Shown piece by piece: positions 4,378 to 57,056 of a DNA stretch of 64,000 nt; position 1 is the stretch's first letter; every line of letters begins with the position of its first letter. The stretch spans positions 5,152,001 through 5,216,000 of the forward strand of contig CH464491.1 of NCBI GenBank assembly GCA_000002445.1, read 5' to 3'. A program made the translations under genes and the position numbers. The notes under the pieces are model-generated. The model made no database searches. It was not told where the DNA came from and saw nothing but the letters and a program-made list of their open reading frames with translations. The stretch is from Trypanosoma brucei (Eukaryota).

Positions 4378-4619
4378 TAAGGTGCTTTACATCTGCTGCC
4401 GGAGCTGTTGCGGCATGGCAATGTGCACGCATTGGCCTGCTGACACACAAGTTAACTGCTCGCCGCACCCGACTGCTTTGGCCAGGCTGCTATGTCGGCT
4501 GGCTTTAGCCGCCAAACTCCATATTCTGCCCTTTCTAAATATTAAGATTGTTTTGCTAGCGCCCCTTGAAAGGAAAATTGTATACCGGAGCGAAACTGCC
4601 ACAAGCCAGCGTTTAAAAT

Positions 4620-4900
4620 AAATTTGAAGTCGCGCGCAGTGCAAAATGCAGAGATGAAATTCACCAAAGCAGAAAGAGTAACAAACACCACTGCGCGGGT
4701 AGTTTCTGAATATAAAAGGAGCCGCTGCATCACTGAAAAAATTAAAAAAAACAATGTGCTGCAAAAAAAAAAACAGAACAGCCGCTGTATCATTAAGAAA
4801 ATTGCAAAGAGAAGCAATCCAATACGGAAGAGCTGCGTAAAAAAAATGTAACCCTAACCAAGTAACCCTAACCCTAACCCTAACCATTCCTACCTACCCC
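4620..4900 (-). repeat. interstitial telomere-like block: (CCCTAA)4 plus degenerate GCCGCTGCATCACT-type short repeats
   Basis: 4851-4890 reads taaccctaaccaagtaaccctaaccctaaccctaacc. 4700-4800 carries repeated ggagccgctgcatcactgaaaaaa / cagccgctgtatcattaagaaaa units. Homologous blocks occur at 28270-28640 and 44700-45110. Confidence 0.75.
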
Positions 4901-5019
4901 CAACTTCCACAAAAACTCAAAAAAAAACGGGAAAAGAAAAAACAAATTAAGTTATCAGAAAATCAAAAAAATTACAGAATCAGACAGTCAATTTACAAAA
5001 ACAGTTCGATTTTTTCGGT

Positions 5020-5035
5020 TAAATTAAAGGTGTTA
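5020..5035 (-). promoter_or_regulatory. VSG 3'UTR conserved 16-mer (reverse complement gtgttaaaatatgtca)
   Basis: Matches the conserved VSG 3'UTR 16-mer TGATATATTTTAACAC with one mismatch, about 75 nt downstream of the VSG stop, followed by aagttttcaagtagcaa. Confidence 0.7.
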
Positions 5036-5106
5036 AAATATGTCAGAAGTTTTCAAGTAGCAAAAAATTTTAGAAAAATTAAAAAAAAAAATTGAGGGGG
5101 AAAAAT

Positions 5107-14757: not shown

Positions 14758-15589
14758 TAAACGAATAACAAAAATCAAAATAAAAGGATTGCTAATTCAC
14801 ATCTTTTGGAGAGTCCGGGGTGGGGGGTTTCTCGCCCCATCTGCTGTATTCCGTTCAACTGCGGAGCTACAACAAAAAATTATAGAGAGTGTGTTAGGCT
14901 GAATAAAAAAGGGAGACTCTGCCACAGTCGCCAGACCGATAGCATCTCAGGGCTCTACGGTGATGGCTGATGGCCGCGCCAGTGGGGGGAAACTCCCACG
15001 AAGGCACGAAGAAAATTTGAAAAATATTTCTGTGTCTTCGTCTTTTCCTTTTTTATTTTGTGTTTTTTCCGTCGGTGATGTAGAGATCGTTTTACCGGTA
15101 GATTTTGTAGGTACATACGCTCGGTTGCCGTTGTGATCTGTTTCGTAATACTTACAGCATGTATGCTTATTGTTATTATGATCATTTTTCCATTTGAGCG
15201 TTTAAAATTGCATATAATCAATAAACATTCCTGTTTTTATGTTAATCGTTATCACTAAATTAAGATTGTTACGAGTTCACTGTTGTTTACGTGCTTTTTT
15301 GTTCTATCATTCGATTTCTCCTGCTTCTTTTATAATTATATTAATATGTAATGAAAACACGCTCCTCTAATTATTACGGTTACTATATTATTATAACGCT
15401 ACACAATATCCACAAGGAAAATAAGTCATGTTCGAAAATGTTTTCTAATTTACACTTTATATGAAAAACTATTGATATTTATCAAGTGTGAGTAATTTTA
15501 GAAAGTTCTTTCAAAAACGAAAACTTTCATAGTTTCCACAATTTTCATATAATTTAGCAAAAATCTTTTAAAAATAATTCTTTAAAGTG

Positions 15590-17071
15590 TTATACTATAA
15601 TAAAAAATGCAAGCAAAAAAGGGGCATTATTAATTAAAAGAAAATTGCTTCCTGTGTTGTTTGTTTTTCCATCTTTATCTTCTTGGTTTGCTTTTTCTAG
15701 TGCTTGTTTTCTTTCCTTGATCAATGTACACTTTTTGTCCTTCTCGCCATCTTTGTTGAAAACGCACTCCTTATCCTTTAGTTTTTCGCATGCTTCTTGG
15801 TCATCTCCTGCTGCATTGCAAACTTTCTCCTTGTCTTGCACACTTGGAACTTTGCACTTAGAATTTTCCGTTGCCTTTTGTAATTCCTTGCCCTTCGCAG
15901 CTAGCTCCTGAACTCTTTGTCTCTCATAGTGCGTTAATATTAGGTTTAGTTGCCTAAGCTCTTTTATCTTACCGAGTTCTGTGTTTCCGTCTTTTTGGTC
16001 TGTGAATAGGCTATTGGGTATTGAGTTGCTGTCAATTGTGGCCCACAATTTGGCTAGGTCATGTTTTTTCGTTGCGCCGTACGTATTGGTAATTGTGTTT
16101 TCCGCTGCAGTTTTGTGGCTGACGTCGCTGTAGTCGTCGGTGTTGTTGAGCAGGCTGTCGTGCACTGCGGCTTTCGTTCGCTTACTTCTTTTCAAGTTGC
16201 TAATTTCTGTTTTTTCTTGCGTGCTGAGCTGTAGCATTCTGCTCTGCAGGTGTTCAGCCAGTGCCTTTCTGGCGTTAAAGTAAAGCACCGGTGTGTTTGA
16301 GGTTGCCTGTTTGTCGAAGGTTTGTAGGTCTTTGGTTGAAAGGTCGGCGCCGTTTGGCGGCAGTTCAAAGAAACCCCCGGCGTAAGGTACGGCCGCGGCT
16401 GTCTGTCCGCCGTTGGTGATACCGCCGCCGCCGGTTTGCCCTTTCGTTAGGGCGCAGTTTTTGCTAGCGTCTGTGTGGCCGCCGGCGGCGCCGGTTATTC
16501 TAGCGGCTTTGAAAAGCGCTTCTGGCGTGTGGCCGTAGTCTTGGGGCGGTTCTGTCGCTCCTTCCGTAACAGCCAGCTTGCATTGCCCGAGGTTGGCCGC
16601 CCCTTGGGTTGCGTCGCCCGTCCCGGCCTCTATAAGACAGCCGTGCGTACCGCTGGACGAATGAGCTTGTGCTGCTATTGTTAGAAATTCAGTTATTCCG
16701 CCGTGAAGGAAATTTGAGTGCGCAGTTGACTTGATTGCCTTGTCTACGCCATCTTTAAGGTCCGCGATAGAGGTCCCTTGTAGTTCGTCTTGAGCTAGCA
16801 GAATTGGAAAGAGCTCCAGTGCTTGTTGCGCCGGCTGCCTGGCTACGTATATGCGCAACTTTAAGTCGGCCACCGCTTGGTTATGTAACTGGTCGAGCTT
16901 GCTACTGACGTCGGCTCGTACTTTCTGAGTCAGGCCTGCCAGCGTCGCTGAAATGTCGCAAAGGGGCTTCCACGCCGCTGCTGAGATGCCGTTGCCGCCT
17001 GTTGCTGCACCGCGCCTGGTCGCTATACCGAGCACTAGCGCAGTTGCTACCATCGCCTGGTGCGGCTTCAT
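15590..17071 (-). CDS. VSG: variant surface glycoprotein, apparently intact (493 aa)
   Basis: Uninterrupted ORF with signal peptide MKPHQAMVATALVLGIATRRGAATG, a cysteine-rich C-terminal domain and a hydrophobic GPI-signal tail TGSNFLLINNAPFLLAFFIIV. Confidence 0.85.
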   Translation of the reverse strand: MKPHQAMVATALVLGIATRRGAATGGNGISAAAWKPLCDISATLAGLTQKVRADVSSKLDQLHNQAVADLKLRIYVARQPAQQALELFPILLAQDELQGTSIADLKDGVDKAIKSTAHSNFLHGGITEFLTIAAQAHSSSGTHGCLIEAGTGDATQGAANLGQCKLAVTEGATEPPQDYGHTPEALFKAARITGAAGGHTDASKNCALTKGQTGGGGITNGGQTAAAVPYAGGFFELPPNGADLSTKDLQTFDKQATSNTPVLYFNARKALAEHLQSRMLQLSTQEKTEISNLKRSKRTKAAVHDSLLNNTDDYSDVSHKTAAENTITNTYGATKKHDLAKLWATIDSNSIPNSLFTDQKDGNTELGKIKELRQLNLILTHYERQRVQELAAKGKELQKATENSKCKVPSVQDKEKVCNAAGDDQEACEKLKDKECVFNKDGEKDKKCTLIKERKQALEKANQEDKDGKTNNTGSNFLLINNAPFLLAFFIIV

Positions 17072-27929: not shown

Positions 27930-28080
27930 AATTCAAGCAACAGAGGGGCATTAATCAAAGCAGAATTGCTTCCTGTGGAGCCTGTAGGGTTTCTATCATT
28001 TCCACCAGTTCACTTTTTTTTTTTACTTCCTTCTTTGTTTTCTTACTCAATGTGCACAGTTTACCCTAGACGGCTTTTGG
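27930..28080 (-). pseudogene. VSG: VSG C-terminal fragment (GPI-signal remnant)
   Basis: Reverse complement of 27940-27990 encodes TGSNSALINAPLLLE, of the same type as GSNSFVIHKAPLLIAVLLF. No upstream VSG body is present. Confidence 0.5.
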
Positions 28081-28269
28081 GTTAAAAACGTACCTCCGGA
28101 AGTCTAGCACCTTTGGATGGTGGGTGCCAAAGACAGAGTGTGTAGCTACTCCTTAGTTGCTTATTTTAATTAGCGGCTATCCCCTAAATATTAGTATATT
28201 TCCTTAATTTCCCCCTTTAAAAAACAAACCGCGTTCAAAACCATAGGACACGCGCCAGCTTTTTAAAAG

Positions 28270-28640
28270 AATTTAAGAGTCGCACAGCGCAAAATGCAGA
28301 GATGAAATTCACAAAAGTGTAAAAGTAAAATTATAACAAATCTGCAGAGAGGTTGAGTCGGCAAACTTAAGCAAAGATGTTTGTCGCGTAAATAAGGGTT
28401 GGGGTCCGCATAACAAAATAGCCGCTGCATGACTATAAGAATAAAAAAGCATCAACCAGGTACAAAAAAAGCATAATAAATCGTATCACCAGCGGCGGGG
28501 CACATAAAAAAAAAGGAGCCGCTGCATCACTAAAAGACTAAAAAAACAAAAAAAGAAAAGGAGAAAAAATTAACCCTAACACACTACCCCTAAGCATAAG
28601 CCGGAAAACCCCCTAACTAACTAACCTACCTACCCACAAA
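28270..28640 (-). repeat. interstitial telomere-like block (degenerate CCCTAA and AGGGTT hexamers plus GCCGCTGCATCACT short repeats)
   Basis: aaccctaacacactacccctaagcataagcc at about 28571. ataagggttggggtcc at about 28393. ggagccgctgcatcactaaaagactaaaaaaa and tagccgctgcatgactataagaataaaaaa units. The flanks are homologous to 4620-4900. Confidence 0.7.
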
Positions 28641-28759
28641 AACTCCAAAAAACGGGAAAAAGGAAAAAAATTTTAGTTGCCAGAAAAACACAAAATATTT
28701 TTACAGAGTCACAATTTTACAAACTTACAAAAACAGTTCAATTTTTTCGGGTAAGTTAC

Positions 28760-28775
28760 GTGTTAAAATATATCA
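28760..28775 (-). promoter_or_regulatory. VSG 3'UTR conserved 16-mer (reverse complement gtgttaaaatatatca)
   Basis: Exact reverse complement of TGATATATTTTAACAC about 60 nt downstream of the VSG stop, followed by aagttttcaaatagcaa. Confidence 0.75.
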
Positions 28776-28834
28776 AAAGTTTTCAAATAGCAAAAATTTT
28801 TAGCAAAAATTTAGCAAGAAAAATAGGGGAAAAT

Positions 28835-30265
28835 TTAGAAAAGCAACACTGCAATCAAAAGAGGAGCCTTGTGAATGACAAAAGAATTGCTTCCTGTGGT
28901 GTTTGTAGCTTTGGCATAATCCCCATTTTTCTTGTCGTCTTTGCTCTTTTTCGGAAAACATTTTGGCGTTTTGTTTTCATCCAAATAACAGCCTTCTTTT
29001 TGACAGTGTTCTGGGGTTGTTTGGCTTCCACATTGTTGTGGTTTTTGTGTGGAGGTCTCTGTTTTACAGCTAGGCTTGTTTTTTCTTTGAGAGGCATGGT
29101 ATGCTAAAACTAATCCTCTGTTAGTGTCGGTAGAAAGTTGTTCGATTTTGCTGTCAATGTCTGTTCCCGCTATTTTCTGCTTTACTGAGTTTGCCTTCAC
29201 CTTCTCCCATATCTTAGCATTGAATTCTGTCTCAGTGCCTCCGAACATGGCTTTTATGCCGTCTGTTATGGCTTTCTTTTGCGAATCACTGCTTGCGTCG
29301 TATTTGGCTGCCGGGCCTTGTAATTCTATCAGAACTGCTTTTCTCACGCCTTCGTCGTTTTGTACAACTGCCATGTTACGGACTGAGGCCATATCTGCGT
29401 CGCATGGTTTGTTTTTGAGAAAGTCGTAGAGGCGGTGTTCTATGCTCGTTTGGTGTTTCTCCAATTCTTTTTTTAGTCCTTGCGGTGTGTCTGAGCGTTT
29501 GGGCTTAGCGTCGGTTGTTTTCACCGCTAGCTGCGCAAGTTCTCCTGCCTTAAAAAGTGTTGCTGCCGCTGATGAAACTTTGATGTTGGTCTCGGCTGTG
29601 CTGCAGGCAGCGCCTACACATGCGACCTGGCAGACACCGGCGGCGGTGTCTGCGGTGGTTTTGCCTTCCAGTTTGTGTATTCTGATCGACTCTAGCTGCC
29701 GCGTGTCTGGGTCGTTATCTGTATTTGCCGCCGTCGCCGTGTATGTCTTTGCACATGAATCGTCGGTCAGTTTGTCCAGTTTTAGGTGACCTGAGACTGA
29801 CTGCCCTTGGCCGGTGTTTGACATCGCCTGAGCTGTCCCTGTCGCTGATTTGATTTCCGTTGCAGATGATAGCGCCAAGTTTTTGCCGGCTTCGATGTTG
29901 AGCGTTCGTGTTAGTTGGCTTACTGCTTGCGCGCACGTTACAGCCGCTTTTGCTAAAGTCGCTGTGCGCCTTGATGCGTATTCTGACAGCCCGGCTATTG
30001 CTGCGTTGGCTGCCCCCGTATCTGTTGTTGCTGCGTAGACCTCAAGCGCCCTGTGCTCATCTACCGCTTCCGTTGTTTTCTCCAGCAGACTCTTCAGTTT
30101 CCCCTCCGCTGCCGCAGCGAGCTTGATTAGGTAATGCGCCGATTTGCATGGCGTGTCTTGTTTTGTGAGTTCCGCTGCGGGGTCAGCTTGTGTGCCGCGA
30201 CTTAGCAGCAGTGTTGCCACAACTAAGCCAATAAAAGTCGCAATTATATTGCTAACTGCGGTCAT
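28835..30265 (-). CDS. VSG: variant surface glycoprotein, apparently intact (476 aa)
   Basis: Uninterrupted ORF with signal peptide MTAVSNIIATFIGLVVATLLLSRGTQA and a C-terminus ...CYLDENKTPKCFPKKSKDDKKNGDYAKATNTTGSNSFVIHKAPLLIAVLLF. Confidence 0.9.
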   Translation of the reverse strand: MTAVSNIIATFIGLVVATLLLSRGTQADPAAELTKQDTPCKSAHYLIKLAAAAEGKLKSLLEKTTEAVDEHRALEVYAATTDTGAANAAIAGLSEYASRRTATLAKAAVTCAQAVSQLTRTLNIEAGKNLALSSATEIKSATGTAQAMSNTGQGQSVSGHLKLDKLTDDSCAKTYTATAANTDNDPDTRQLESIRIHKLEGKTTADTAAGVCQVACVGAACSTAETNIKVSSAAATLFKAGELAQLAVKTTDAKPKRSDTPQGLKKELEKHQTSIEHRLYDFLKNKPCDADMASVRNMAVVQNDEGVRKAVLIELQGPAAKYDASSDSQKKAITDGIKAMFGGTETEFNAKIWEKVKANSVKQKIAGTDIDSKIEQLSTDTNRGLVLAYHASQRKNKPSCKTETSTQKPQQCGSQTTPEHCQKEGCYLDENKTPKCFPKKSKDDKKNGDYAKATNTTGSNSFVIHKAPLLIAVLLF

Positions 30266-30730: not shown

Positions 30731-31832
30731 TCACAATTTCTTTGCTTTAAACAAATCCCCGTTTTTGAAAGCATCGCCACAAATTTTCTCATATACAAGG
30801 CTTAAATATTTTCCATTTATTGTATAGACTTCTGTCGCCCCTAAGTTAGAAATAGTAAAATTAGATTTATTGAAATTTCTGTAACAACCGAGGTGCTGGA
30901 ACAGCTGCTTTGCAAACTCCCGCCATGCCAGTGCGATGCCAGGGAAGTGGATGAAAGGCGCATTTCCAGGTACTGGCGCGGTCGGCACCGAAAAAAATCT
31001 CTCGTTATAGTCCAAGGAAATCAAACCCCTGCGTAAAATAAATCTTTTACTGATGCTTCCTTCCTGAGTTACGCTCCACAACCACAAAGGCATGAAAATA
31101 CTTTGATCAGACCACCAGTCGTCACTTGTTTTCAATAACTCATTAAATGCTACGTTTAAGCTCCTGAATGCCCAAACTCTTGCGATTATATTACCACCTC
31201 CAAGGTAAGGTTTTCCGCTAGGAGGTGATTTTAGTAAATGGGGTAATTTTTTATCCTCCTCTTTTTGGTAACCAACATTAAAAAGCCAGTAGCATCTCTC
31301 CACATGTTCTTTGTGATCTGAATTAATAAGCAAATCCAATTGAGGTGCTGTGCAATCTGGGGTTGTGATAAACTGAACCGGAGATATTTGATTTTCTTTA
31401 ACTATTTCATCTTCCCTAAACTTACCTTCATTTGCCGCAGTATTATGTATAAAATATTCCACCGCATTTTCATATTTTTCTCTGTCAGAAACAATAACAT
31501 TAGATCCGCCTGAATGAATTACAATATCCTCATCACTGCCATTCTGTCATTATAAATATTGCATAACCCACCTAGTTCCTCTTAACATGGCTGTACAAAC
31601 CTCCTATTGCAATTGTAGTAATTTCAACATGGCTTAGATTGGCGCTCAGTATGAGTCTGCACCATCCTTGAGTTGCATGAGTTTGAACTGCAACGACAAA
31701 GACCCTTGGGTCCTTACGGTCTGTCTTTGTCATATTTGTTATTCTATTTGGCTCATCCCCATCAAGAGACATTGAGCCTAAACACACGAAATGCAGAAAA
31801 GACAAATAAAGTTCACATAAACTATATTTCAT
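30731..31832 (-). pseudogene. ESAG3-like pseudogene, paralogue of 6803-7899, tentative family assignment
   Basis: 31572-31832 (MKYSLCELYLSFLHFVCLGSMS...) and 30731-31462 (...DWWSDQSIFMPLWLWSVTQEG...FIHFPGIALAWREFAK...ICGDAFKNGDLFKAKKL) are co-linear with the 6803-7899 copy but not in one continuous frame. Confidence 0.4.
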
Positions 31833-32254
31833 TTCTTAATATGACTTTAAAATTTGAATGCATTATGAGGAAAAATGAAAAAAACTTAGGAAAGAAGTGA
31901 GCAGCACAACGTATATTTTTATTTTCGATAAGTTTAAAAATTCAATTTCAAAACACACCTTGTTGTATCTAAAGTAAAACATCAACATTTAGCGGTGTCA
32001 GTTGCTTATCCACATATACCAAAGATAGAAATTTCATAAGGCTTCTTCACTAGACTATGTCTAAATCTTATGATCACAATTATCATACCTTTTGGTATCA
32101 TCATAACCACACTTATTTATGTGTTTAAAACTGCGTATATTTTATTTCTCCGCTCCCTCTGTGTCTTTCTTTTAATAATATTCTTGACCTTCCAAACGGT
32201 CACATACTTACACCGCAACCTTGTTATTGTATAAAGCGTGTCTGGTTTTTATTA

Positions 32255-32323
32255 TCATCTACATTATTATAATTACTACTCTCATTATAATATTCGTATA
32301 TGCACACTCACAACACTTTCCTA

Positions 32324-32378
<55 letters not shown>

Positions 32379-42487: not shown

Positions 42488-44149
42488 TTTTTTTATTTAC
42501 TGGATTATTGTGCGTTGTGTGTTTGTCTATGTAATATTTGCGAAAAGATGGTTTTTAGATCGGCACAGTGGAGTTGATTGATCTGATTGTTGTTCTGGCT
42601 TACTACCGTTCAATTGGGAGAAGTTTATTAGATTTTTTTTTGCAGCTTGTGGATTGCAGCCCACGCCGCCCGGTACAGCTGTCGATAAGCTCGATATATT
42701 CGGCTGTCAACGCTTTTCAGAAGCAGCCTGCTGTGCCACCAAAACCGCATTCTGGTAGCTGCCTTCTTATGAGACCACTTAAATTTACGGTATTGAATTA
42801 AAAATTTTGCTAACATCAATTATTTCATGTCCAGCCTCCATCCAAAAATTTTCCATAGTTGCCAACATTATTTCGGATATTGATCCAAAATTACATCTAA
42901 AGTACTCTCCTTGTTTCTTCTCTGCACAATGTAAATGCATATACCTCCCTTTCTTTGATATTTGTTTTCAAATGCATCACAACTTGTTCTTTGTACAGCT
43001 TCTGACTATTCGAACCATATTTGACACTCAGAAGCTCGCCGTTCAAAAATTTTCTTGTACTAGTGCTGCAAACATCTGCGTTATTTTCCGCGTTCATTTT
43101 GTTCAAAGATGGTTTGTGGATCTGTCAAATTTGCTATCGATCGCCTCTTTGCCTCGCGTTCTCAAAGTATTGCAGCTGACAGCCTGCCGACTAAAGTTGG
43201 TACGAACATTGCTACACGCGGCATCAGTCGCCCTGACGCAGATCCGTGGCTTTTGCTGCTTTTTCAGACTCTGTGATTGCAAATCTTTTAACACAAAGAG
43301 TTTTTAACAAGTACAAACTAACACTAGCTCTTAGTTGTATTTGTCTTCGCTACTTACTTTCTTCTTTCTCACTTAACGATACAGAAAGCTGCAGGGTCAA
43401 GAAATACATATGGGAAGTCGATGCTATTTACTGTTTTCTTACTGGTTGATTCGAACCACTTGCACTTTTCCATGTTTTTTAGCTTATAGTATGCCAAATC
43501 TGCAGCTTAGACTTGCTTTTTACGTTTTGGATGCTAATACAGAAAATAAAGAAATATTTTCGCCCATACAATACCTTGCCAATTTGGCTACGTCTCAAAA
43601 GAACAACGACTCGGTGTTTCCACACTATCTTCTCACTCAAAAACGCTTTTATCACCGATATACCTTGTCGGTTTCTACTAATTTTTTTATCTGCTTCTAT
43701 TTTTACTAATTTAGCGCTACTTTTGTTTCTTTCTGTCAGTTCAACTGTGGCCATTGTACGCTTGCCCCTGAATAAACTTTCTAGCTGTCGTTAATACAGA
43801 TACCAAAAGCACTTTAAGATGAGTTATACGCTCTTTATCTCGTCAATTACCTCCAATGTTGCTATAAGGTACAAAGGTATTATATTCCTTATATTCCTTT
43901 CTTCCTTTCCGCTTTCTGTCACTGTTTCTACAGATTCCGTAGTTACTCTCCTTAGCTTATACACTGGAATTCGACTCTCCCTGATTGTTCTTTCTACCAT
44001 CTAGTTATGTATAATAATATCCATAATCATGTTTGAGTATGAACTGCCTATATTTCATCTCCTCATTCTCCTCTTCACTCTTCTACTTACTCTCATTGCA
44101 TCCTTGGAATTTTTAAAAATGTTTCTATTTATCGAATCCACTTCGTACT

Positions 44150-44222
44150 CTCATTATTGCTCTCATTATAATATTCGTATATACACACTCACAACGCACT
44201 TCTATTATTATTATTATTATAG
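44150..44222 (-). repeat. 70-bp repeat
   Basis: ctcattataatattcgtatatacacactcacaacgcac core plus a TAA run. Confidence 0.85.
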
Positions 44223-44384
44223 CCCTAAATAATTTGCATTAAAAAAATACAAGAAAAGTTAGAATATCACTCATTTTCACATTTTCATCAGAAAGTGTAA
44301 AGGTATATAAAATTTAGATAAATTTATAAATTTTATAAAATCAAGAAAAGGTTTTAAAAGTTGTTGAATGCTACAAAAATAGTA

Positions 44385-44700
44385 AAAGCAGCAGCCATCA
44401 GAGCCGATTTGTTATTTAAAAGTAAACTATAATCACTTCAAGCTTTATTATTCCATTTGAAGTTATCGCCCTTTTGTACAGGCATCCGATGTAATGTGGC
44501 TAGTGCAATTTGCAGTTGCAGTTGTTTTATCCCCGTCTTTCTTTTCTCCTGTTTCGTCTCCTGTATTTTTTTGTCTCCTTCTTGTTTGGCTCCTTCTACA
44601 GCTGTTGTTAGTTTTTGCATTTTCTGAACATAGTAATAAGCCATTGTCTTCCCGAAGTTGTTCTTGTTGCAATGCTTACCAGCTCTAAAAAAACGGCGGT
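44385..44700 (-). pseudogene. VSG: VSG C-terminal fragment
   Basis: ORF 44463-44672 encodes a cysteine-rich C-terminal-type segment (CSENAKTNNSCRR...KKDGDKTTATANCTSHITSDACTKG). A GPI-like hydrophobic tail (LNNKSALMAAAFTIFVAF) lies at 44390-44440. There is no N-terminal domain. Confidence 0.5.
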
Positions 44701-45110
44701 GCAGCGCCATAGGCCACGCACCAGGGTCTTAAAAAAAAGTTTGAAGCCTGTCCCTACGAAAAGTGCAGAAGCGAAACTCTCGAAAGCTACAAGAGTATAA
44801 TTGTAACAATGTGGGGATTAAATGAATATGAGAAAAATTTAAGCGAAGATGGCTGCCGTCCAAATAAGGGTTAGGGTTTCACCAAAAAGAGAGCTACTGT
44901 GCCACTGAAAAAAAATTAAATTAAAAAATGGGTCGATGTGAAGATGGAAATTTAAGCTGCAGATGTAAACGTGAACAAAAATGTCTGCTGCGTCAATAAG
45001 GGTTAAGGCCACATCTAAAAAAAAAGGACAAAATCATGACGGGTCACTGGTAGTAGAAAACAAGAAAAAATAAAAATAATAACCCTAACCCTAACCCTAA
45101 ACCTAAGCCT
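44700..45110 (-). repeat. interstitial telomere-like block (CCCTAA x3, TAAGGGTTAGGG, subtelomere-like short repeats)
   Basis: aaccctaaccctaaccctaaacctaagcc at 45081-45109. gtccaaataagggttagggtttcacc at about 44858. gtcaataagggttaaggccac at about 44990. Confidence 0.7.
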
Positions 45111-45215
45111 GGAAAACTTCCCTAACGTACCTCCTTCCTACCTTTTTTGTTTGCTGTACAAAAAAAATTCAAAAAGAAAAAAAAGGATAAAAATTTTCAG
45201 CTATCAGAAAAAAAT

Positions 45216-46930
45216 TTACAGATTTAGACAGCTTAACAAAAATATTACCGGGATATTTTTACGTGTTAAAATATACCAAACAACAAAATTCTTTAAGAAA
45301 GGGAGGGGGAAAAATTTAAAAAGAAAGGCCGCAAATGCAGAAACCATGAGGGCTAATTGCTTTTCTGCTAGAAAACTGGAGGAGCGGCAACCAGGAGTTA
45401 CTGGACCCTGACCATCAATATAGGTAATCCATCCACAAAAGTCTTTCTTTCCTTGGGGGATCGGGCCAGTTTTTTGGCGCAATTCTTAGAATTTTTGTGC
45501 GGCAGAGCACTTATCTTTTCCCCCTGAAGCTCCTTCTCCTTCTCCTGCTGCTGTGTCTTCTGTTCTATCTTTAGGTTTGCATTTGTTCTCTTTTCATCGT
45601 AATTGCATTTGTTTTTAGGGCATAACTTCTGATTTCCATTGTGCTCGGCACAAAGCTCCGCTGCCTGTTGATCTGACTGTGTCTTTGCTCCAGTTGTTTT
45701 GGGGAAAACAGCTTTGTTGGTTTTCATAGCGTTTATGTTTTCTATTGCCTCCGCTATTGCATATTGTAGTTGATCGTCGTTAATTTGAAACAGTTTTTTG
45801 GTTTGTTTTGTGTTGCCCTGCGTCGGTACCTCCGCGTTTATGGCTTTGATCGCCATTATGTAACCGCCTTCTTCGTTATCTGCGTTGACTTCGAAAAAAC
45901 TTTTAACTAGTTCGTCTGCGTTGTTTGCCTCAGCTGCCGCTTGCCACGCCTGCGCCTTCTGTGCAGCTGTTGCCAGTGCTGCCCGAGTTGTTCTGTCTTT
46001 TAGTAGGCCCTTTACTGCCGTTTCGTCCGTTGGTGTTTTTGTTACTGCTTGCCGCAGCTTGTTTGCTACTGCAGCGCGCTTTTCGCTGAGCGCCTTGAGA
46101 AGGTTATTTGTGACTGCGGCCGTGTGTATCGATGGCATGTTCTGGAAGTCTCCAGCAGCTGCTACCTGTATTAGTCCGTTTAGTGGGTGTATTGGCTGCG
46201 TTACACTGCTGTATGCTGTGTTTGGGTTTTCCGATATTCGGCATTTTGGTGCAGCTGCTCCGGTTGTTTCAGGGATTCCTGTGTCTTGAAGGGTTGTTTT
46301 GATTTCGGTTGCCAGATCTGTGATAACTGCTGTTAGTGTTGTCGTGTCTGCCGTGCCGCACTTTGTGTCAACGATTTTAGCTGCAGCGTTGCCGTCGTTG
46401 TCACCGCCAATGCACCCATTTTGTGCTGTTGGTGTCGTTTGTTGGTGGTTTTGCAGTAAGTGCATCAGTTCATCGACACGGCCTGAAGCGTACATTGCTT
46501 GTCCTACTATTTTGGTGTTCTCGCCTTCCCAGTTGACGAGGTTGCTGGTCGCTTCGTCTAGGTTTGTCGCCGCATACAGCTTGAACGTTTCTGCTGCAAG
46601 CTTCAGCGCCGGCATTTTTAGTGCTGCTAGCGAATGCTGAAGGTACGCGTGCTTGGCGGTGATCACTGCATCTTTGCCATGCTTGATCGAGTCTGCTAGG
46701 GACGCGGCTAAGGCCTTGGCTTTGGACGAAAAGGCACATAACTTTGTCCCAACACTGGCTTTGATTGGGCGTTTGTCGGTCGCGCCTTCGATACCGGTCG
46801 GCAGCGCAAGGACTAGAGCCACTAGTCTCGCCTGTTTGCTGCTCCGCTGTCGCCAGTTGTTAATGCTTTTTCGCTCCACGTCGTCTTTTCCGGCATGTTG
46901 GGCTAGTTCAGTGCCTGTGACTGCAAACAT
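45216..46930 (-). pseudogene. VSG: VSG pseudogene (C-terminal frameshift; aberrant N-terminus)
   Basis: The 510-aa ORF 45398-46930 holds the signal peptide core ARLVALVLALPTGIEGA but lacks a proper initiator just upstream, and ends ...LPILMVRVQ*. The GPI signal SSSFLAEKQLALMVSAFAAFLF is read in another frame at 45216-45482. Confidence 0.75.
45264..45279 (-). promoter_or_regulatory. VSG 3'UTR 16-mer-like element (reverse complement gtgttaaaatatacca)
   Basis: 15 of 16 positions match the reverse complement of TGATATATTTTAACAC, downstream of the VSG C-terminus. Confidence 0.55.
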
Positions 46931-47684: not shown

Positions 47685-47923
<239 letters not shown>

Positions 47924-50763: not shown

Positions 50764-53700
50764 CCCTCGCGATGCCGGCCACCTCAACGTGGTGCCAGGG
50801 TCCAGTACCCCGTATCATCGGGGAAAGCCAAGAGCCAGCAGAGTTCCTTTCATGAGGAACACTGCTGTGCTCCGGCTACGGCATCATACAGCACAGGGAT
50901 CAGCAGCGTCTTGCTGGGACACCGTTCTTCATTTGTCTGTCCCTGGGGACGTGCCAGCGTGCCATCAACAGTATCATCCGCACTAAGATGCTGCTGTCCG
51001 GTGATGTGGAAGAGAATCCCGGACCGTCGTTGCGCGGGATGCAGTGGAACTGCGCCGGGGTATCTCAAGGAAAGAGATTAGCACTCCACAAAACCCTTGT
51101 TGATGAGCGGATCGCCTTTTGTCTGTTGAGCGAGACAAGGATGACGCCTGGAGAGGCGGCTTGCTTTAGCGTTGCTGGCTACCAACATCACGGAATAGCT
51201 CGTAACTTCAAAGGAGGTGGTGTATCAATACTAGTGAGGGGGGACCTACCAGTCGAGACCGGTATGGCCGTTGTTGGTCGCATTGAACAAGTGCATGCAA
51301 CAATTCACCTTGCACGTGGAACGGCGCTGACTGTCACGTCGGCATACATCCCACCAAAACACACCTTCACGGCAACTGACCTAGATACGCTTCTGACAAC
51401 TGACGGTGCCCAGCTCATCGGTGCAGACGCTAACGCACACGCGTTGGCATGGGATCGCGCGAGCCCACCAAATACAAGGGGTGAAACCCTCACACAGTGG
51501 TGCATTGACAATTAGTTTCTGGTCTGCAACACTGGTGAGTGCACCAGGTACGCGCGCCACCACGGGGAGTCCACCCCTGATGTGACACTGTCAAGGAATT
51601 GCACAGTGCACACGTGGACATCGCTGTATTCTCCCGATAGCGATCACCATCACATATTTTTCGACGTTATCGTTGGAGACGACACAGATGCACTGAGTTG
51701 CCCGCGGCTTCGAAAGCCCATGTACGCATGGCTAAAAGCTGACTGGAGGAATATCCGTCTCAAGGTTGACGAGCTCTGCAGGAAAATTAATAGAGAGAAG
51801 AACGTCAACACCCTGGAACAGAAATTGAGCTTCGCCATCCGCATTGCGACGAAGGTCTCCGTCCCCCGTGGCTGCAGAGCAACGGCATCACATTGGACAC
51901 CTGAGCTCGCGAAACTCGATGAAGAGATCGCTGGATGCGGACCCTCCCACCGAAGGGAAAAGTTGGTAGCCACGCGTAAGCAGATCCTGGACCGTACCAC
52001 AAAGAAGAGATGGAGCACGCTATGCTCCAGACTTGCGGTGTCAGACCGCTGCAGTTGGCACATTGTCAAGAAGGTATATCCGCCACGACCACTAACCACA
52101 CCGGCTGTACTTGTTGATAACGCGGCCATCACGGACTACTGTCAAGCTGAGAGGTTCATTAAACTGTACTCGTCCCGCGCAAGAAGGCACCCCGACTCAC
52201 ACCCACCGGCACCAATAAAGACGATAGCGAGTGAGTTCAGTCCCATCACGATGGCTGAACTACGGAAATCGATCAAACAACTTCCGAGTGGATCCACAGC
52301 CGGACCTAATTGCTTATACAACGAGGCACTACAACATCTCGGTAGAACAGCGTTGAATGTTGTTCTGAGGCTATTCAATGAGAGCCTACGAACGGGAGTC
52401 GTGCCGCCTGCATGGAAGACTGGTGTTATCATCCCCATCCTGAAGGCCGGAAAAAAGGCGGAGGACCTCGATTCTTACAGGCCAGTGACGCTCACGAGCT
52501 GTCTCTACAAAGTCATGGAGCGCATAATTGCCGCGAGACTTAGAGACACTGTTGAGTCCCAGCTGACGCCGCAGCAATCAGGCTTTCGCCCCGGATGCTC
52601 AACGCTCGAACAACTCCTGCACGTCCGCGCTGCCCTCCGCCGTCCCACGCACCAATCTCGTACGGGTGCTGTATTTGTCGACTACGAGAAGGCATTCGAT
52701 ACAGTAGACCACGACAAAATTGCGAGGGAAATGCACAGAATGAAGGTATCACCCCACATTGTGAAGTGGTGCGTATCATTTCTGAGTAACCGAACTGGCA
52801 GAGTGAGATTCAAGGAGAAGCTTTCCAGAAGCAGAACATTTGAGCGAGGAGTGCCACAAGGAACTGTCCTTGGCCCAATCATGTTCATTATTGTCATGAA
52901 CTCGTTGAGCCAACGCCTTGCAGAAGTGCCGTTACTGCAGCACGGATTCTTTGCAGACGACCTGACGCTACTTGCGAGGCACACAGAGAGGGATGTCATC
53001 AACCACACACTACAATGCGGTCTAAACGTGGTGTTACAGTGGTCAAAAGAGTACTTCATGTCTGTCAACGTAGCGAAAACAAAGTGCACACTCTTCGGGT
53101 GTATAGAGCGTCACCCCCTTACATTACAACTGGACGGCGAAAGAATAGGAGCTGACAGGACACCGAAGCTTCTAGGAGTAACATTCCAGTGTCTGCAAGG
53201 GATGGCAACACATGCGGCCAAAACGAGACGCAAGATGGATTTCAGACTACTGCAGATAGCAGCCATCTCAGCTTCTACATGGGGGCCAAGACGACAAGTA
53301 CTGAGAGCTTTTTATCTAGCACTCGTACAGGCACACACCATGTATGGCATTGAGGTATGGTACTGGGACGCTTCGGAACGAAGTCGCGACCTCCTTGCAT
53401 CAGCACAACACAAAGCCAGTCGCATCATAGCCGGCATACCACATGGGACGCGCAAAGAGGACTCTCTGCTGGAAGCAAACCTCCTGCCACTCAAGACGAC
53501 CACTCTTGTGCGCAGCATGAAATTCATGCTGATGTGTGAGTCACGAGGCGGATGTTTGCGGCGCAGTGCTGAATAAGTATACCACAGCAAACACCCAGTC
53601 AGAGTCTTACATTCCCGCATCATGCGGTCCTATCCCCAACTCCGCATTGAGCCACGCGAGCAACCACTAGAGACATCGACGCTCCGCCACAGCTGCCGAC

Positions 53701-56028
53701 CGCTATTTCACACGCAGATAAAGCCTGTGTGCGCTGATGACCCTGACGATGTCAAAAGGGAGGCTTCCGAAAAGTGGATTGAACGGCATTTTGCACGGAG
53801 GGGGAAGGAGCCACCGCGGCGAGAGCACTACGAATTGTGGACTGATGGATGCGTGTCCCTCGGTGAGAAGTCCGGAGCAACTGCCCTGCTCTATAGAAAC
53901 AACACGCTGATTTGCGCACCCAAAACTGGAGCAGGGGAACTCTCATGCAGTTACAGAGCGGAATGCTTAGCATTAGAGATAGGACTGCAACGGCTGCTGA
54001 AATGGCTTCCGGCATACAGAAGCACAACGAGCAGGTTGTCCATCTTCTCTGACTCGCTGTCAATGTTAACAGCACTGCAGACAGGCCCCCTAGCCGTAAC
54101 GGACCCAATTCTAAGACGACTATGGAGGCTTCTGTTTCAAGTTCAGAGAAGGAAGATACGTATCCGACTGCAATTTGTGTTTGGCCATTGTGGCGTGAAA
54201 CGGAATGAGGTTTGTGACGAAATGGCCAAAAAGGCCGCAGATTTACCACAGTTGCGAGACACATGGATCCCCAACATCATTGCTTATGCGAAGCGAGTGC
54301 TTAGGTCGGAAGAAGTCTATGAGAACACTCATAGGTTTGGTATCACGGGCAACCACTTTCCAACAAAACCTAAGAAAGAAGAACTGACGAGGGAGGAAGA
54401 AACGGCACTGGCACGCTTTCGGGTTGGGTCCTCAAGACACTATGGCTGGATGTTGCGAAAGATCAACCCGAGTGTGCCTCCACAGTGCCGATGGTGCAAC
54501 CCGCAACATGCAGAGATAGGGCCAACAATACAAACAGCCCTACCTATTGCGACACGCACTCTTCAGAGAACCTCCGAACCGACCAAATGTACGGAATGTG
54601 ATGCCACATACCAATGCCGCTCGAGTGCTGTAACGCACATGGTAAACATGGCTTTGTGCGAGCTGATGCCCTCAGGAGGATCAAATACGGCGATGCAACA
54701 CCTGCAGTGGACATCCCCCCGGAGTCCCCTCCAGTGGTGGCGATCGTTCCTCTACCATTCGAGCACACGAGTCCAGATGAGACCGCAGGTGCTTCATTGT
54801 ACCCTCTGTACCTCCAAATTCGCAGTGCCAGGCCGACTATTACACCACCTTAGAACAATACATGGCATAGGCAGCGGTAGTTTGCCGCGTGAAAAGGGGG
54901 CGAGAGAACGAGGACTCAGTGCAAGGAGATGGTAGAGCTCCAGCAGCGCCAGCCTCTCAGGATACACGGAAGCTGCCGTTTCAATGTGACCTGTGCGAGC
55001 CGAGCTTCGGTACACGTTCTTCCCTGTCACTACACAAAAAATTCAAACATAAGAGCATAGTGACGGAGGACGGTACCGTGGTGGTGGTGCAACTCCCTCG
55101 TAAGCGTGCCCGTGAGGGAAACGTTGACGTCCCGGGGAAGGGCGAGGTGCAGTGTGGTGTGTGCCAAAAAGTGCTCAGTTGCAGGGACTCCCTCATCCGA
55201 CACTGTAAGGCTTTCCACAAAGGTGAGGGAGTCGAGCTTAAATGCAGCAAAAGCACAAAATTGTGTGCCACTGATTCCCCGCATACAAACACATACATGT
55301 ACATCCATCTTGGTGTGCCCGACATGCGGAAGGCAGTGTGCTAGCAAAACTGGCCTCACCCTACATCAAAAGAAGATGCACGGTATGAAGGTAGAGCGCG
55401 CTGTTACCAGCCAACGCGGCGAATGCGAAGAAACGTCGCTGCACTTGATGAGCTGTCCCGGTTTGAAGGAGTTACGTGTCAGGTTTGCGGTAGAAGGTGA
55501 GTGTGTGCAGGATGTATGTTTCTCTAAAAGGCTGGCGCAGTTTCTCATTGCGGTTGAACGGAGCCGGCCACAGGTGAAGTCCTCACCTAAGGTAACAGTC
55601 ATACAACCCACTCTCCCTTCTGCAACTTCCCCCCTTATTGCCGAGTGTGGAGCTAGCAGGAAAAGCACCGGACGCAGGAATAGTCCAGACACCCTTAGAG
55701 ACAGAGGAGGTATGCAGTCAACAAGCAACAGAAACAGAAAGAGGGGGAGAGAATAATAAACGAATAACAAAAATCAAAACAAAAGGATTGGTAATTGACA
55801 TCTTTGAGAGAGTCCGGGGTGGGGGGTTTCTCGCCCCATCTGCTGTATTCCGTTCAACTTCGGAGCTACAATAAAAAATTATAGAGAGTGTGTTAGGGTG
55901 AATAAAAAAGGGAGACTCTGCCACAGTCGCCAGACCGATAGCATATCAGTGCTCTACGGTGATGGCTGATGGCCGCGCCAGTGGGGGGAAACTCCCACGA
56001 AGGCACGAAGAAAATTCCAAAAAAAAAA
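50764..56028 (+). mobile_element. ingi: ingi non-LTR retrotransposon, copy 2, degenerate, 3' poly(A) of about 10 nt
   Basis: Co-linear with copy 1 at about 97-98 % identity from ccctcgcgatgccggccacctcaacgtgg to ...cacgaaggcacgaagaaaattccaaaaaaaaaa. The ORF is broken by a nonsense change at about 53577 (GAA to TAA) and by later indels. Confidence 0.9.
50988..55756 (+). pseudogene. ingi polyprotein pseudogene (AP endonuclease, RT, RNase H-like region and zinc fingers split into several ORFs)
   Basis: ORFs 50988-51515 (2A plus endonuclease), 51582-53576 (RT), 53622-54935, and 54889-55344 / 55106-55756 (zinc fingers) are co-linear with the copy 1 ORF but sit in different frames or are separated by stops. 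Confidence 0.85.
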
Positions 56029-56030
56029 TG

Positions 56031-57056
56031 CCTCTGTTTTTCTGCTTCGACGAGCATTTTTTGGGCAGCAAGAAACTGTCCCACCCAGGGGAGTTTTGTA
56101 ATATCCTTGTTCCGTACGACGCCATTGTAGTCTATGCAAGCGGATGCTTCGTCTTGTCCGTCGAAGTCGTTGTTGGTTTCTCCGCCTCCTATCACGTTCT
56201 CTGTGTTTGCGCCGGTGGATGGTGCTGTGCCAAACAAACTTGCGAATTGGGCAAGCGCCGCGTCGATGGTTGATGGTGTCACATGCCGCTGGGTTGCTGA
56301 GGGTGGACACTTTGTTACTATCGTTTGTAGTGCTCTCTTAGCGCTCTGTGCTGTGTCTCCACCGCTGTTTTTGTAGCTTTGTTCGTTGCCGCCTGCCACA
56401 CACAGGTTGGTCGCACCCGCTGAGGAACACAGGCAAGCCAAATCCGATGCTAGGCTGGCTCCCTGCTCGGCCGGACTGTCCTTTTTGCACCTGTTCGCGT
56501 GGTTGCCATATATGCTGTCGTCCGTAGTCTCCTTGTTTGTATCACCCGTTAGCGCTTGCTTCAGGTGGCTTCTTACACCGCCAGCCAAAGCTGTTATTGC
56601 TTGTTGTGCATCGTTGAGCCGTTTTCTGGTTTCGGCTGCTGCTGTTCGAATTTTGTCCATCGCACATTGTACACGCTGCCGGGTTTCTTCGTCTCCGATA
56701 CGTAAATATTTTGTTTTTGCTTCTGGTGTATGTGCCTCCAGCAAACTTTTCTTTTTTTGCTCCCACGCTTGCTTGTTGAACGTCGAAAAAATTTTTGCTG
56801 TGAAATTAACTGTTGGCAGCGTTACAATGTACAAATCCTCTATGTCGTCTGGCGGTTCAGGTGTGTCGCTCCGCGTTAAGTCTGTTGTGTTTGGTTCCGA
56901 TGTGCACAGCTTGTAAATTTCGCAAAATACAGAGAATTCTTTGCCGTTCTTTGTGGTCGCTGCGGCGCCAAGTTGAGCTGCCAATAGTAGAAGGGCCAAT
57001 GCTTTTGATATGGCGAATATAGCGCATCCCGACATTGCATACCCGTATCTGATCAT
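56031..57056 (-). pseudogene. VSG: VSG N-terminal-domain fragment, 3' end truncated by ingi copy 2
   Basis: ORF 55893-57056 begins with signal peptide MIRYGYAMSGCAIFAISKALALLLLAAQLGAAA and has a VSG N-domain (DLACLCSSAGATNLCVAGG). After ...KMLVEAEKQRH the reading runs straight into the ingi poly(A) tail (FFFGIFFVPSWEF), and no C-terminal domain follows. Confidence 0.8.

What the first reader, a model, noticed from the sequence alone, without database searches (positions are those of the whole stretch)
44385..45215. Third telomere-like composite, with (CCCTAA)3 and oppositely oriented TAAGGGTTAGGG motifs about 230 nt apart
Downstream of VSG pseudogene 45216-46930 there is aaccctaaccctaaccctaaacctaagcc at 45081-45109, in telomeric polarity relative to the VSG. 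On the same strand, gtccaaataagggttagggtttcacc (about 44858) and gtcaataagggttaaggcc (about 44990) carry the hexamer in the opposite orientation. They sit inside roughly 30-nt units resembling (G/T)CTGC(C/T)G(T/C)C(C/A)AATAAGGGTT. An orphan VSG C-terminal fragment follows at 44385-44700, directly abutting the next 70-bp repeat. Inverted hexamer orientation within one block is not expected for a simple terminal tract.
Basis: partly seen in the sequence, partly recalled or inferred. Interest (0 to 1): 0.6.

Follow-up and report, generated by a model that had tools for sequence, protein, structure and literature searches.

The report
Telomere-type VSG flank inside array
Inside a silent surface-antigen (VSG) gene array on Trypanosoma brucei TREU927 chromosome 11, one gene is followed by the kind of downstream sequence, including a few telomere repeats, that is reported next to chromosome-end VSG genes; it is most likely a recombination scar, real but only modestly surprising.

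Summary
A G-strand telomere tract in VSG-sense polarity, TTAGG-TTTAGGG-(TTAGGG)2-TTA, lies at 45081-45109. Two oppositely oriented hexamer-like motifs lie at 44863-44878 and 44995-45008. An orphan VSG C-terminal domain follows, then a 70-bp repeat.

The block is not unique. It is one of three diverged, homologous ~650-bp modules in the window (about 4532-5106, 28181-28834 and 44688-45320). Each follows a VSG 3'UTR and precedes an orphan VSG 3' fragment. From the conserved 3'UTR 16-mer onward, these three flanks form a class distinct from the ordinary array flank. The hexamer tract starts ~195-220 nt after the VSG end, which matches the shortest VSG-to-telomere distance published for expression sites. 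TTAGGG-like repeats 3' of telomere-proximal VSGs are also published.

The "~30-nt units" are the conserved core of a ~133-bp duplication. They are not a tandem 29-bp array.

The best reading is a fossil of a telomere-proximal VSG cassette copied into an array VSG, leaving the recipient's 3' end as the orphan. A mis-join is unlikely but could not be tested with reads. No real telomeric T. brucei sequence could be fetched, so the telomeric origin is inferred. Interest is low to moderate, as a new member of a known kind.

The parts
45398..46930 (-). VSG (A-type N-terminal domain), 510-aa ORF. Its C-terminal tail (about 45318-45397) is frameshifted and the canonical stop is lost (..AAFLF-K instead of ..AAFLF-stop), so it is a pseudogene.
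   Evidence: ORF list. Pfam PF00913 E 2.6e-14. Frame translations. ORF 45216-45482.
45263..45278 (-). Conserved VSG 3'UTR 16-mer (TGGTATATTTTAACAC, 1 mismatch to the TGATATATTTTAACAC consensus).
   Evidence: 12 matches in the window against 0.92 expected.
45126..45262 (-). Segment X: the distinctive flank between the 3'UTR and the hexamer tract. It is shared only with the two sister blocks and is unrelated to ordinary array flanks.
   Evidence: Alignments A1 and A2. Pairwise scores are 46-110 within the class against a background of 20 +/- 3.
45081..45125 (-). TTAGGG-like tract with the G-strand on the VSG-sense strand: TTAGGGAAGTTTTCCAGGCTTAGGTTTAGGGTTAGGGTTAGGGTT. The core, 45081-45109, holds about 4 repeats. 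It starts about 195-210 nt after the expected end of the VSG.
   Evidence: period 6, 5.2 copies, 45080-45110.
44688..45080 (-). Segment Y: A/T-rich sequence with G+C-rich islands, homologous to the sister blocks. It contains a ~133-bp direct duplication (aligned cores 44812-44894 and 44945-45027).
   Evidence: 44687-44877 matches 28222-28405, E 7.5e-8; duplication score 44 against shuffles 24 +/- 3.9.
44995..45008 (+). Inverted hexamer-like motif AATAAGGGTTAAGG. On the VSG-sense strand it reads CCTTAACCCTTATT, 10/12 to (CCCTAA)2. It is the core of duplication copy 1.
44863..44878 (+). Inverted hexamer-like motif AATAAGGGTTAGGGTT. On the VSG-sense strand it reads AACCCTAACCCTTATT, 11/12 to (CCCTAA)2. 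It is the core of duplication copy 2 and is conserved at 28391-28405 in a sister block.
   Evidence: (I11-I12).
44354..44687 (-). Orphan VSG C-terminal domain with GPI signal (..SALMAAAFTIFVAFNNF-stop; stop codon at 44354-44356). It carries frameshifts and has no N-terminal domain.
   Evidence: Translations. Pfam PF10659 E 7.8e-11.
44223..44353 (-). The orphan's own 3'UTR (degenerate 16-mer at about 44295-44310) and ordinary array-type flank.
   Evidence: Alignment A2. Clustering.
44130..44222 (-). 70-bp repeat unit ((TAA)6 followed by GTGCGTTGTGAGTGTGTATATACGAATATTATAATGAGAGCAATAATGA) that starts the next array unit.
   Evidence: (44203-44220, TAT x6).
28181..28834 (-). Sister module 2, downstream of the intact VSG 28835-30265 (XP_829794). 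It holds X, a degenerate TTAGGG tract (about 28570-28625) and Y with one inverted-hexamer core at 28380-28405. An orphan C-terminal fragment follows at about 27940-28180.
4532..5106 (-). Sister module 1, downstream of the intact VSG 5107-6651 (XP_829792). It holds X, (TTAGGG)3-4 at 4849-4886 and Y without an inverted-hexamer core. An orphan VSG 3' fragment follows at about 3945-4530.

Best explanation
The block is a recombination relic. It is the 3' flank of a telomere-proximal-type VSG cassette (3'UTR, then ~140-nt segment X, then 3-4 TTAGGG repeats, then ~400-nt segment Y) that now lies inside a chromosome-internal VSG array of T. brucei TREU927 chromosome 11.

Proposed sequence of events:
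1. A break occurred in or upstream of a resident array VSG.
2. It was repaired by copying from a VSG that carried this telomere-type flank. Copying started in the 70-bp repeats and ran through the donor VSG, X, the short hexamer tract and Y.
3. It resolved non-homologously, or by microhomology, onto the resected far side of the break inside the resident gene.
4. This left the resident gene's C-terminal domain, 3'UTR and ordinary flank as the orphan.

The oppositely oriented hexamer-like motifs are inherited parts of Y. They sit in a conserved 26-nt core, here doubled by a 133-bp duplication, and do not mark a separate event.

Shown: the anatomy, the homology among the three modules, the two flank classes and the internal location.

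Inferred: the telomeric origin of the donor, the direction of transfer and the repair pathway.

The block probably has no dedicated function. At most it could offer a few TRF/RAP1-type binding sites and extra 3' homology to expression-site ends.
For: 1. Source and context. Four intact VSG ORFs in the window are exact matches to TREU927 proteins XP_829792-95 on a 5,261,801-bp record. VSGs, 70-bp repeats and ingi elements fill the window.
2. Three modules are homologous across X, tract and Y (alignment A1). BLAST E-values are 8e-13 and 2e-8 for modules 1 and 2, and 7.5e-8 for modules 2 and 3. The Y motifs occur nowhere else in the window.
3. Right after the 16-mer, the three flanks form their own class (scores 46-110). 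They are at shuffle background (20 +/- 3) against nine ordinary array flanks. The two orphans tested carry the ordinary class. This fits a donor flank joined to a recipient gene.
4. The tract is in telomeric polarity and starts ~195-220 nt after the VSG end in all three. [quoted passage not shown] Hall et al. [quoted passage not shown]
5. The orphans differ in length and type (~590, ~240 and ~330 nt), and homology stops at the distal end of Y. The Y-to-orphan junctions are therefore not one inherited junction.
6. Modules 1 and 2 also share an ESAG3 pseudogene between the 70-bp repeat and the VSG (76% identity to each other; the module-2 copy, ORF 30734-31462, is 60% identical to expression-site ESAG3). 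The same arrangement is reported at some expression-site ends.
7. Two of the three linked VSGs are intact, against 2 of about 12 others. My hand-calculated hypergeometric p is about 0.15, so this is only suggestive.
Against: - No genuine telomeric T. brucei flank could be retrieved (expression site, metacyclic site or minichromosome). Identity of X and Y with real chromosome-end sequence is therefore untested and rests on two literature statements.
- It is unknown whether Y lies between the short tract and the long terminal repeats at real ends.
- The distal ends of Y fall within ~50 nt of each other in the three modules. That could instead mean a single ancestral junction later remodelled.
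- Divergence among the modules (47-79% per segment) shows the events are old, so the junction microhomology cannot be read.
- Expressed relatives of VSG 5107-6651 ended their conversion inside the C-terminal domain, not in X. There is thus no sign that the flank is used in switching.
Confidence: 0.6

Rival explanations
1. There was a single ancestral event followed by spread within arrays. One telomere-type flank was trapped once next to a C-terminal fragment. The whole composite (VSG-X-tract-Y-C-terminal domain) was then copied to other array positions by ordinary homology-driven VSG gene conversion, with 70-bp repeats upstream and C-terminal domain or 3'UTR homology downstream. The ultimate origin is still telomeric, but the three copies are paralogues and not three separate arrivals.
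For: - The distal ends of Y coincide within ~50 nt.
- All three are followed by a C-terminal fragment.
- Modules 1 and 2 share upstream (ESAG3 pseudogene) and downstream flanks around unrelated VSGs, one B-type and one A-type. This is the pattern expected if flanks are inherited and coding regions are swapped.
Against: - Orphan lengths differ (~590, ~240 and ~330 nt), and orphan 1 includes ~190 nt upstream of the C-terminal domain.
- There is no detectable homology across the Y-to-orphan junction.
- Module 3 lacks the ESAG3 pseudogene.
Confidence: 0.22
2. The block marks an ancient chromosome end. A former telomere with a critically short tract was joined to a broken array, or extended by break-induced replication. 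On this reading each composite is a fossil chromosome terminus, comparable to internal telomere tracts between yeast X and Y' elements or between human subtelomeric blocks. The inverted hexamers would be the remains of a head-to-head telomere fusion.
For: - The tract is short and in correct polarity, followed by a truncated gene.
- CCCTAA-like motifs in the opposite orientation lie 75-200 nt away.
Against: - Three such chromosome-scale events within 41 kb, all leaving the array in one orientation, is not parsimonious.
- The ~400 nt after the tract is conserved among the copies, so it is not random captured DNA.
- No inverted homology of the flanks exists; BLAST on both strands gives plus/plus hits only.
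- The G- and C-type hexamers are separated by conserved non-telomeric sequence.
- Module 1 has no inverted motif.
Confidence: 0.07
3. The block is a selected functional module. The internal TTAGGG/CCCTAA motifs recruit telomere proteins (TbTRF, RAP1) or base J to help silence array VSGs or to bound them. Alternatively, they pair as a hairpin in single-stranded DNA or in a transcript.
For: [quoted passage not shown]
- Saha et al. 2021 speculate that TbTRF may bind chromosome-internal TTAGGG repeats (PMC8191777).
- The tract position is conserved in three modules.
Against: - Only 3 of about 15 VSG units in the window carry the module.
- The tract is degenerate in module 2.
- The inverted motif is absent from module 1.
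- Predicted folding is no better than for shuffles (z -0.03 and +1.03).
- There is no Rfam match.
- Per-segment identity is only 47-79%.
Confidence: 0.07
4. The block is an assembly artefact (a chromosome end or clone end mis-joined into the array) or a chance occurrence of hexamers.
For: VSG arrays are repetitive and hard to assemble. No reads were available here.
Against: - The window sits within a 5.26-Mb record with array sequence on both sides.
- The tract is only ~4 repeats long.
- Three diverged copies have the same architecture.
- 6 hexamer-dimer matches are seen against 0.12 expected.
Confidence: 0.03

Closest known systems
Conserved sequence organisation 3' of telomere-proximal VSG genes in T. 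brucei (Aline & Stuart 1989, as cited by Hall et al. 2013, PMC3708902; VSG-to-telomere distance 200-1590 nt in Lister 427 expression sites, PMC2567434)
   Same: - TTAGGG-like repeats lie shortly 3' of the VSG, in G-strand polarity.
- They start ~200 nt after the gene.
- The flank class is distinct from ordinary array flanks.
- In two modules an ESAG3 pseudogene lies between the 70-bp repeat and the VSG, as reported at some expression-site ends.
   Different: - The block is not at a chromosome end.
- The tract stops after ~4 repeats and is followed by ~400 nt of Y, an orphan VSG C-terminal domain, a 70-bp repeat and more array.
- Sequence identity with the published telomeric flanks could not be checked.
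Interstitial telomeric sequences, and internal telomere tracts at boundaries of subtelomeric blocks (my own knowledge: yeast X-(TG1-3)-Y' and human subtelomeric (TTAGGG)n islands; short ITSs inserted at break repair, PMC7215372)
   Same: A short, degenerate telomere tract lies at an internal site, at a junction between two sequence blocks of different origin, in a recombination-prone subtelomere.
   Different: - The tract is not at the junction itself. It is embedded ~400 nt inside a conserved module.
- It was therefore inherited with its flanks and not added by telomerase at the break.
T. brucei subtelomeric 29-bp telomere-derived repeats (my own knowledge: Van der Ploeg 1984, Blackburn & Challoner 1984, Weiden 1991; sequence not retrievable here)
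   Same: Hexamer-derived motifs lie next to a telomere-type tract.
   Different: - There is no tandem array and no ~29-nt periodicity.
- Only two copies are present, 133 nt apart.
- They are in the opposite orientation to the tract.
Plasmodium knowlesi variant-antigen gene islands associated with intrachromosomal telomere-like repeats (described in PMC9131526)
   Same: Variant surface-antigen genes at internal chromosomal positions are accompanied by telomere-like repeats. This is taken as a trace of subtelomeric origin.
   Different: - It is a different organism, gene family and repeat.
- In P. knowlesi the association is genome-wide. Here only 3 of about 15 array units carry it.

Membership tests
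Telomere-proximal VSG 3' flank | TTAGGG-like repeats a short distance 3' of the VSG, with the G-strand on the VSG-sense strand | tested here: met
   The tract at 45081-45125 reads TTAGGG on the minus (VSG-sense) strand. The same holds in modules 1 and 2.
Telomere-proximal VSG 3' flank | VSG-to-repeat distance within the published range (200-1590 nt, PMC2567434) | tested here: met
   The distances are ~220, ~210 and ~195-210 nt (searches compared).
Telomere-proximal VSG 3' flank | Adjacent to the chromosome end, continuing into long terminal (TTAGGG)n | tested here: not met
   The tract ends after ~4 repeats. Y, an orphan C-terminal domain, a 70-bp repeat and ~44 kb more array follow.
Telomere-proximal VSG 3' flank | Sequence similarity of X and Y to flanks of proven telomeric VSGs | not testable with these tools
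   - No trypanosome telomeric DNA is in the searchable collections.
- Aline & Stuart 1989 is not held.
- Three T. equiperdum VSG contigs were fetched. The two with more than 2 kb of downstream sequence (L001, L003) lack the module. The third (L002) ends in the 3'UTR.
- There is no metagenome hit.
T. brucei 29-bp subtelomeric repeat | Tandem array with a period of about 29 nt | tested here: not met
   Tandem Repeats Finder at minimum score 30 reports only the period-6 tract in 44690-45215. The two motif copies are 133 nt apart.
T. brucei 29-bp subtelomeric repeat | Match to the published repeat unit | not testable with these tools
   No held paper gives the sequence.
Head-to-head telomere fusion | Abutting G- and C-strand tracts with flanks that are inverted copies of subtelomere | tested here: not met
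   - The tracts are separated by 75-200 nt of conserved non-telomeric sequence.
- No minus-strand homology was found.
- The following gene fragment has the same orientation as the upstream VSG.
Short interstitial telomeric sequence inserted by telomerase at a break | The tract lies exactly at the junction of otherwise contiguous flanks | tested here: not met
   The tract sits at the same position inside a module whose flanks on both sides are homologous in three copies. The block junction lies ~400 nt away.
VSG array cassette | 70-bp repeat upstream, VSG ORF, 3'UTR 16-mer, next 70-bp repeat | tested here: met
   The (TAT)69 run at 47716-47922 lies upstream. The VSG is at 45398-46930, the 16-mer at 45263-45278 and the next 70-bp repeat at 44130-44222.

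The most novel reading that the evidence does not exclude
The composites record a 'reverse flow' in the VSG system. Functional telomeric cassettes from expression sites or minichromosomes would be archived back into internal arrays by break repair that ends non-homologously at the start of the telomere tract. Each event would leave an orphan C-terminal domain, which might account for some of the orphan C-terminal fragments seen in VSG arrays. The retained telomere-type flank and TTAGGG sites would then give these array genes privileged access to expression sites, or distinct TRF/RAP1 chromatin. As a corollary, 'TTAGGG-like repeats downstream' is not a safe marker of telomeric location.
Probability: 0.2. 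Interest if true: 0.55.

Novelty: new member of a known kind. Interest (0 to 1): 0.3.

Why it matters
If the reading is right, some VSGs in silent internal arrays were once chromosome-end genes. They still carry their old downstream flank and a stub of telomere.

This matters in three small ways:
- It gives a concrete, datable footprint of how arrays gain intact genes and how orphan C-terminal fragments arise.
- It warns that 'TTAGGG-like repeats 3' of a VSG', used in published work to call a donor telomere-proximal, can also be found tens of kilobases inside an array.
- It pinpoints unique-flanked internal TTAGGG sites where binding of telomere proteins could be tested.

It does not change the current picture of antigenic variation.

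Tried and rejected
- Related loci by exact protein look-up. Four window VSGs were queried with the look-up of encoding contigs and are not on record there. Yet three of these four are in the protein collection as TREU927 proteins.
- First homology search (VSG 45401-46930). I set too strict an E-value and it returned nothing.
- Second homology search (VSG 5110-6651). It gave T. brucei and T. equiperdum VSGs. Three T. equiperdum contigs were fetched. Two have more than 2 kb downstream but lack the module. The third ends in the 3'UTR.
- Literature on interstitial telomere repeats in T. brucei and on the 29-bp repeat. Nothing in the held library gives the anatomy or the sequence. Aline & Stuart 1989, Cross 2014 and Marcello & Barry 2007 are not held. 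Müller 2018 is cited for 'internal TTAGGG repeats' but does not describe them.
- Hairpin between the G-tract and the inverted motif. Rejected, because predicted folding is no better than shuffles and is not conserved.
- Known RNA family. None found.
- Coding potential of the module. Only short unconserved ORFs, none of the eight looked up present in the protein collection.
- Large segmental duplication as the source of the three copies. Rejected. Self-BLAST shows only the modules, the ESAG3-pseudogene flanks and the two ingi elements.
- Metagenome scan with a 24-mer from Y. No hits.
- The bacterial promoter/terminator scan is irrelevant to a trypanosome and was ignored.

Full report
**What the window is.** The 64-kb window is a silent VSG array.
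- About 15 VSG genes or pseudogenes lie on the minus strand, separated by 70-bp repeats with TAA runs.
- Two ingi retrotransposon copies are present.
- Pfam confirms A- and B-type VSG N-terminal domains and VSG C-terminal domains.
- Four intact VSG ORFs are exact matches to Trypanosoma brucei brucei TREU927 proteins XP_829792-XP_829795 (EAN80680-83) on a 5,261,801-bp record. From my own knowledge this is chromosome 11. Hall et al.'s table lists chromosome-11 array genes up to about Tb927.11.20570.

**The observation.**
- On the VSG-sense (minus) strand, a G-strand tract, TTAGG-TTTAGGG-(TTAGGG)2-TTA, lies at 45081-45109. One more TTAGGG lies at 45120-45125.
- CCCTAACCCTAA with up to 1 mismatch occurs 6 times in the window against 0.12 expected, always inside two of the three blocks.
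- AATAAGGGTTA occurs exactly only at 44863 and 44995.
- The inverted 12-mers are perfectly complementary to the tract, with 202 nt between the arms.
- The upstream gene is an A-type VSG (ORF 45398-46930) with a frameshifted tail and a lost stop codon.
- The downstream fragment, at about 44354-44687, is a bona fide VSG C-terminal domain with a GPI signal (Pfam E 7.8e-11). It keeps its own 3'UTR and ordinary flank before the 70-bp repeat at 44130-44222.

**What it really is.** The block is one of three homologous modules.
- The three stretches from the VSG stop codon to the orphan were aligned: 4480-5110, 28150-28840 and 44640-45325, all on the minus strand.
- They share one architecture (alignment A1):
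  - the 3'UTR with the conserved 16-mer;
  - segment X, about 140 nt;
  - a tract of 3-4 TTAGGG-like repeats;
  - segment Y, about 400 nt, made of T-rich runs with G+C-rich islands such as CAGTGATGCAGCGGCT, GTGAATTTCATCTCTGCATTTTGCGCTG and CTGGCGCGTGGCCTATGG.
- Homology in Y is statistically solid: modules 1 and 2 at E 8e-13 and 2e-8, modules 2 and 3 at E 7.5e-8.
- The Y motifs occur nowhere else in the window.
- Per-segment identities are 47-79%, so the copies are old.

**The '~30-nt units'.**
- Tandem Repeats Finder finds no array other than the hexamer tract.
- The two AATAAGGGTT motifs are the conserved core of a ~133-bp direct duplication within Y of this module. The alignment scores 44 against 24 +/- 3.9 for shuffles.
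- The same 26-nt core occurs once in module 2 (28380-28405) and not at all in module 1.
- On the VSG-sense strand the cores read CCCTAACCCTTA, CCTTAACCCTTA and CCCCAACCCTTA. That is 11/12, 10/12 and 10/12 matches to (CCCTAA)2. They are plausibly telomere-derived but inverted.
- They are inherited parts of Y and do not mark a second event at this locus.

**Two classes of VSG 3' flank.**
- I aligned the ~270 nt that follow the 16-mer for ten units. I also scored the first 170 nt pairwise for twelve units.
- The three modules cluster together, with scores of 46-110.
- They are at shuffle background (20 +/- 3, maximum 29) against nine ordinary flanks.
- The ordinary flanks resemble each other and run straight into a 70-bp repeat.
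- The two orphans tested carry the ordinary class.
- So each composite is a gene with an unusual flank joined to the 3' end of a gene with the usual flank.

**Link to telomeres.**
- The tract starts ~220, ~210 and ~195-210 nt after the VSG end in the three modules.
- Hertz-Fowler et al. [quoted passage not shown] They mark TREU927 minichromosomal reads '[mc TTAGGG]' (PMC3708902).
- Modules 1 and 2 also share an ESAG3 pseudogene between the 70-bp repeat and the VSG (7064-8413 and 30992-32351). The two copies are 76% identical to each other, and the module-2 copy (ORF 30734-31462) is 60% identical to expression-site ESAG3. Hertz-Fowler et al. report this arrangement at a few expression-site ends.
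- Saha et al. [quoted passage not shown] That paper does not describe them.

**Mechanism (inferred).**
- I propose that a VSG cassette with a telomere-type flank was copied into an array position. Copying began in the 70-bp repeats and ran through the VSG, X, the short tract and Y.
- It resolved without homology onto the resected far side of the break, inside the resident VSG. This left that gene's C-terminal domain as the orphan.
- Copying from a telomere-adjacent donor toward the chromosome end by break-induced replication is the documented outcome when no internal homology is available (PMC12137147). From my own knowledge, trypanosomes rely on homologous and microhomology-mediated joining.
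- The orphans differ in length (~590, ~240 and ~330 nt), and homology stops at the end of Y. This argues for separately resolved junctions.
- The near-coincidence of the distal ends of Y (within ~50 nt) may mark the point where unique subtelomere gives way to terminal repeats in the donors. That point is speculation.
- The main alternative is a single ancestral capture followed by spread within arrays by ordinary gene conversion. It cannot be excluded.

**Alternatives tested.**
- Head-to-head telomere fusion is not supported. There is no inverted homology of the flanks, conserved non-telomeric DNA lies between the G- and C-type hexamers, the orphan has the same orientation as the VSG, and module 1 lacks the inverted motif.
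- Telomerase insertion at a break is not supported. The tract sits at a fixed position inside a conserved module, ~400 nt from the block junction.
- A structural or RNA role is not supported. Folding is at shuffle level (z -0.03 and +1.03), there is no Rfam match and there are no conserved ORFs.
- A mis-join is unlikely, given three diverged copies with array sequence on both sides inside a 5.26-Mb record. I could not check reads.

**Limits.**
- None of the available DNA collections holds trypanosome telomeres.
- The T. equiperdum contigs I could fetch carry ordinary flanks or stop in the 3'UTR.
- A metagenome scan found nothing.
- The key older papers are not in the library.
- The telomeric origin of X and Y therefore rests on position, polarity, spacing, flank class and two literature statements. 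It does not rest on direct sequence comparison.

**Verdict.** The feature is real and non-random, and it is best explained as a relic of a telomere-proximal-type VSG 3' flank trapped inside an internal array. It belongs to a known kind: telomere-proximal VSG flanks and interstitial telomere tracts at subtelomeric block boundaries. It is of modest interest, mainly as a footprint of array evolution and as a caution for using downstream TTAGGG as a marker of telomeric location.

Noticed in passing
window 7064-8413 and 30992-32351 (minus strand): ESAG3-related pseudogenes lie between the 70-bp repeat and the VSG, upstream of the two intact VSGs that carry the telomere-type flank. They are 76% identical to each other. 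The ORF 30734-31462 is 60% identical to expression-site ESAG3. The third module (VSG 45398-46930) has no such pseudogene.
   Followed up: partly
window 9772-15024 and 50764-56023 (plus strand): Two ingi-type non-LTR retrotransposon copies are 97.9% identical over 5.26 kb. The first has a 1388-aa ORF with reverse transcriptase, RNase H and zinc-finger matches; the second is broken into several ORFs. Each abuts what appears to be a truncated VSG ORF (8945-9463 and 55893-57056), not checked against Pfam, so they may have inserted into VSGs.
   Followed up: partly
window 5107-6651 (minus strand): This intact B-type VSG (XP_829792) is 92% identical to four VSG sequences whose accessions (AGQ49853-AGQ50265, 2013) appear to come from Hall et al.'s TREU927 infection study. 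It is essentially identical up to about residue 440 and replaced thereafter. This looks like use of the gene as a donor with replacement of the C-terminal domain (3' donation).
   Followed up: partly
window 47716-47922: There is an unusually long, pure (TAT)69 run (207 nt, 94% matches) in the 70-bp-repeat region upstream of VSG 45398-46930. Other units in the window have runs of only 6-31 triplets.
   Followed up: no
window 4532, 28181 and 44688 (distal ends of segment Y): Degenerate TTAGGG-like strings (TTTAGGGGATAG, TTTAGAAAGGGCAG, TTTAGAGCTGG on the VSG-sense strand) sit right where homology among the three modules ends. They could be the first repeats of a second, once-terminal tract, but the resemblance is weak.
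   Followed up: no
window 15590-17071 (minus strand): This intact A-type VSG (XP_829793) has no 3'UTR 16-mer detectable at 3 or fewer mismatches, unlike most other units.
   Followed up: no
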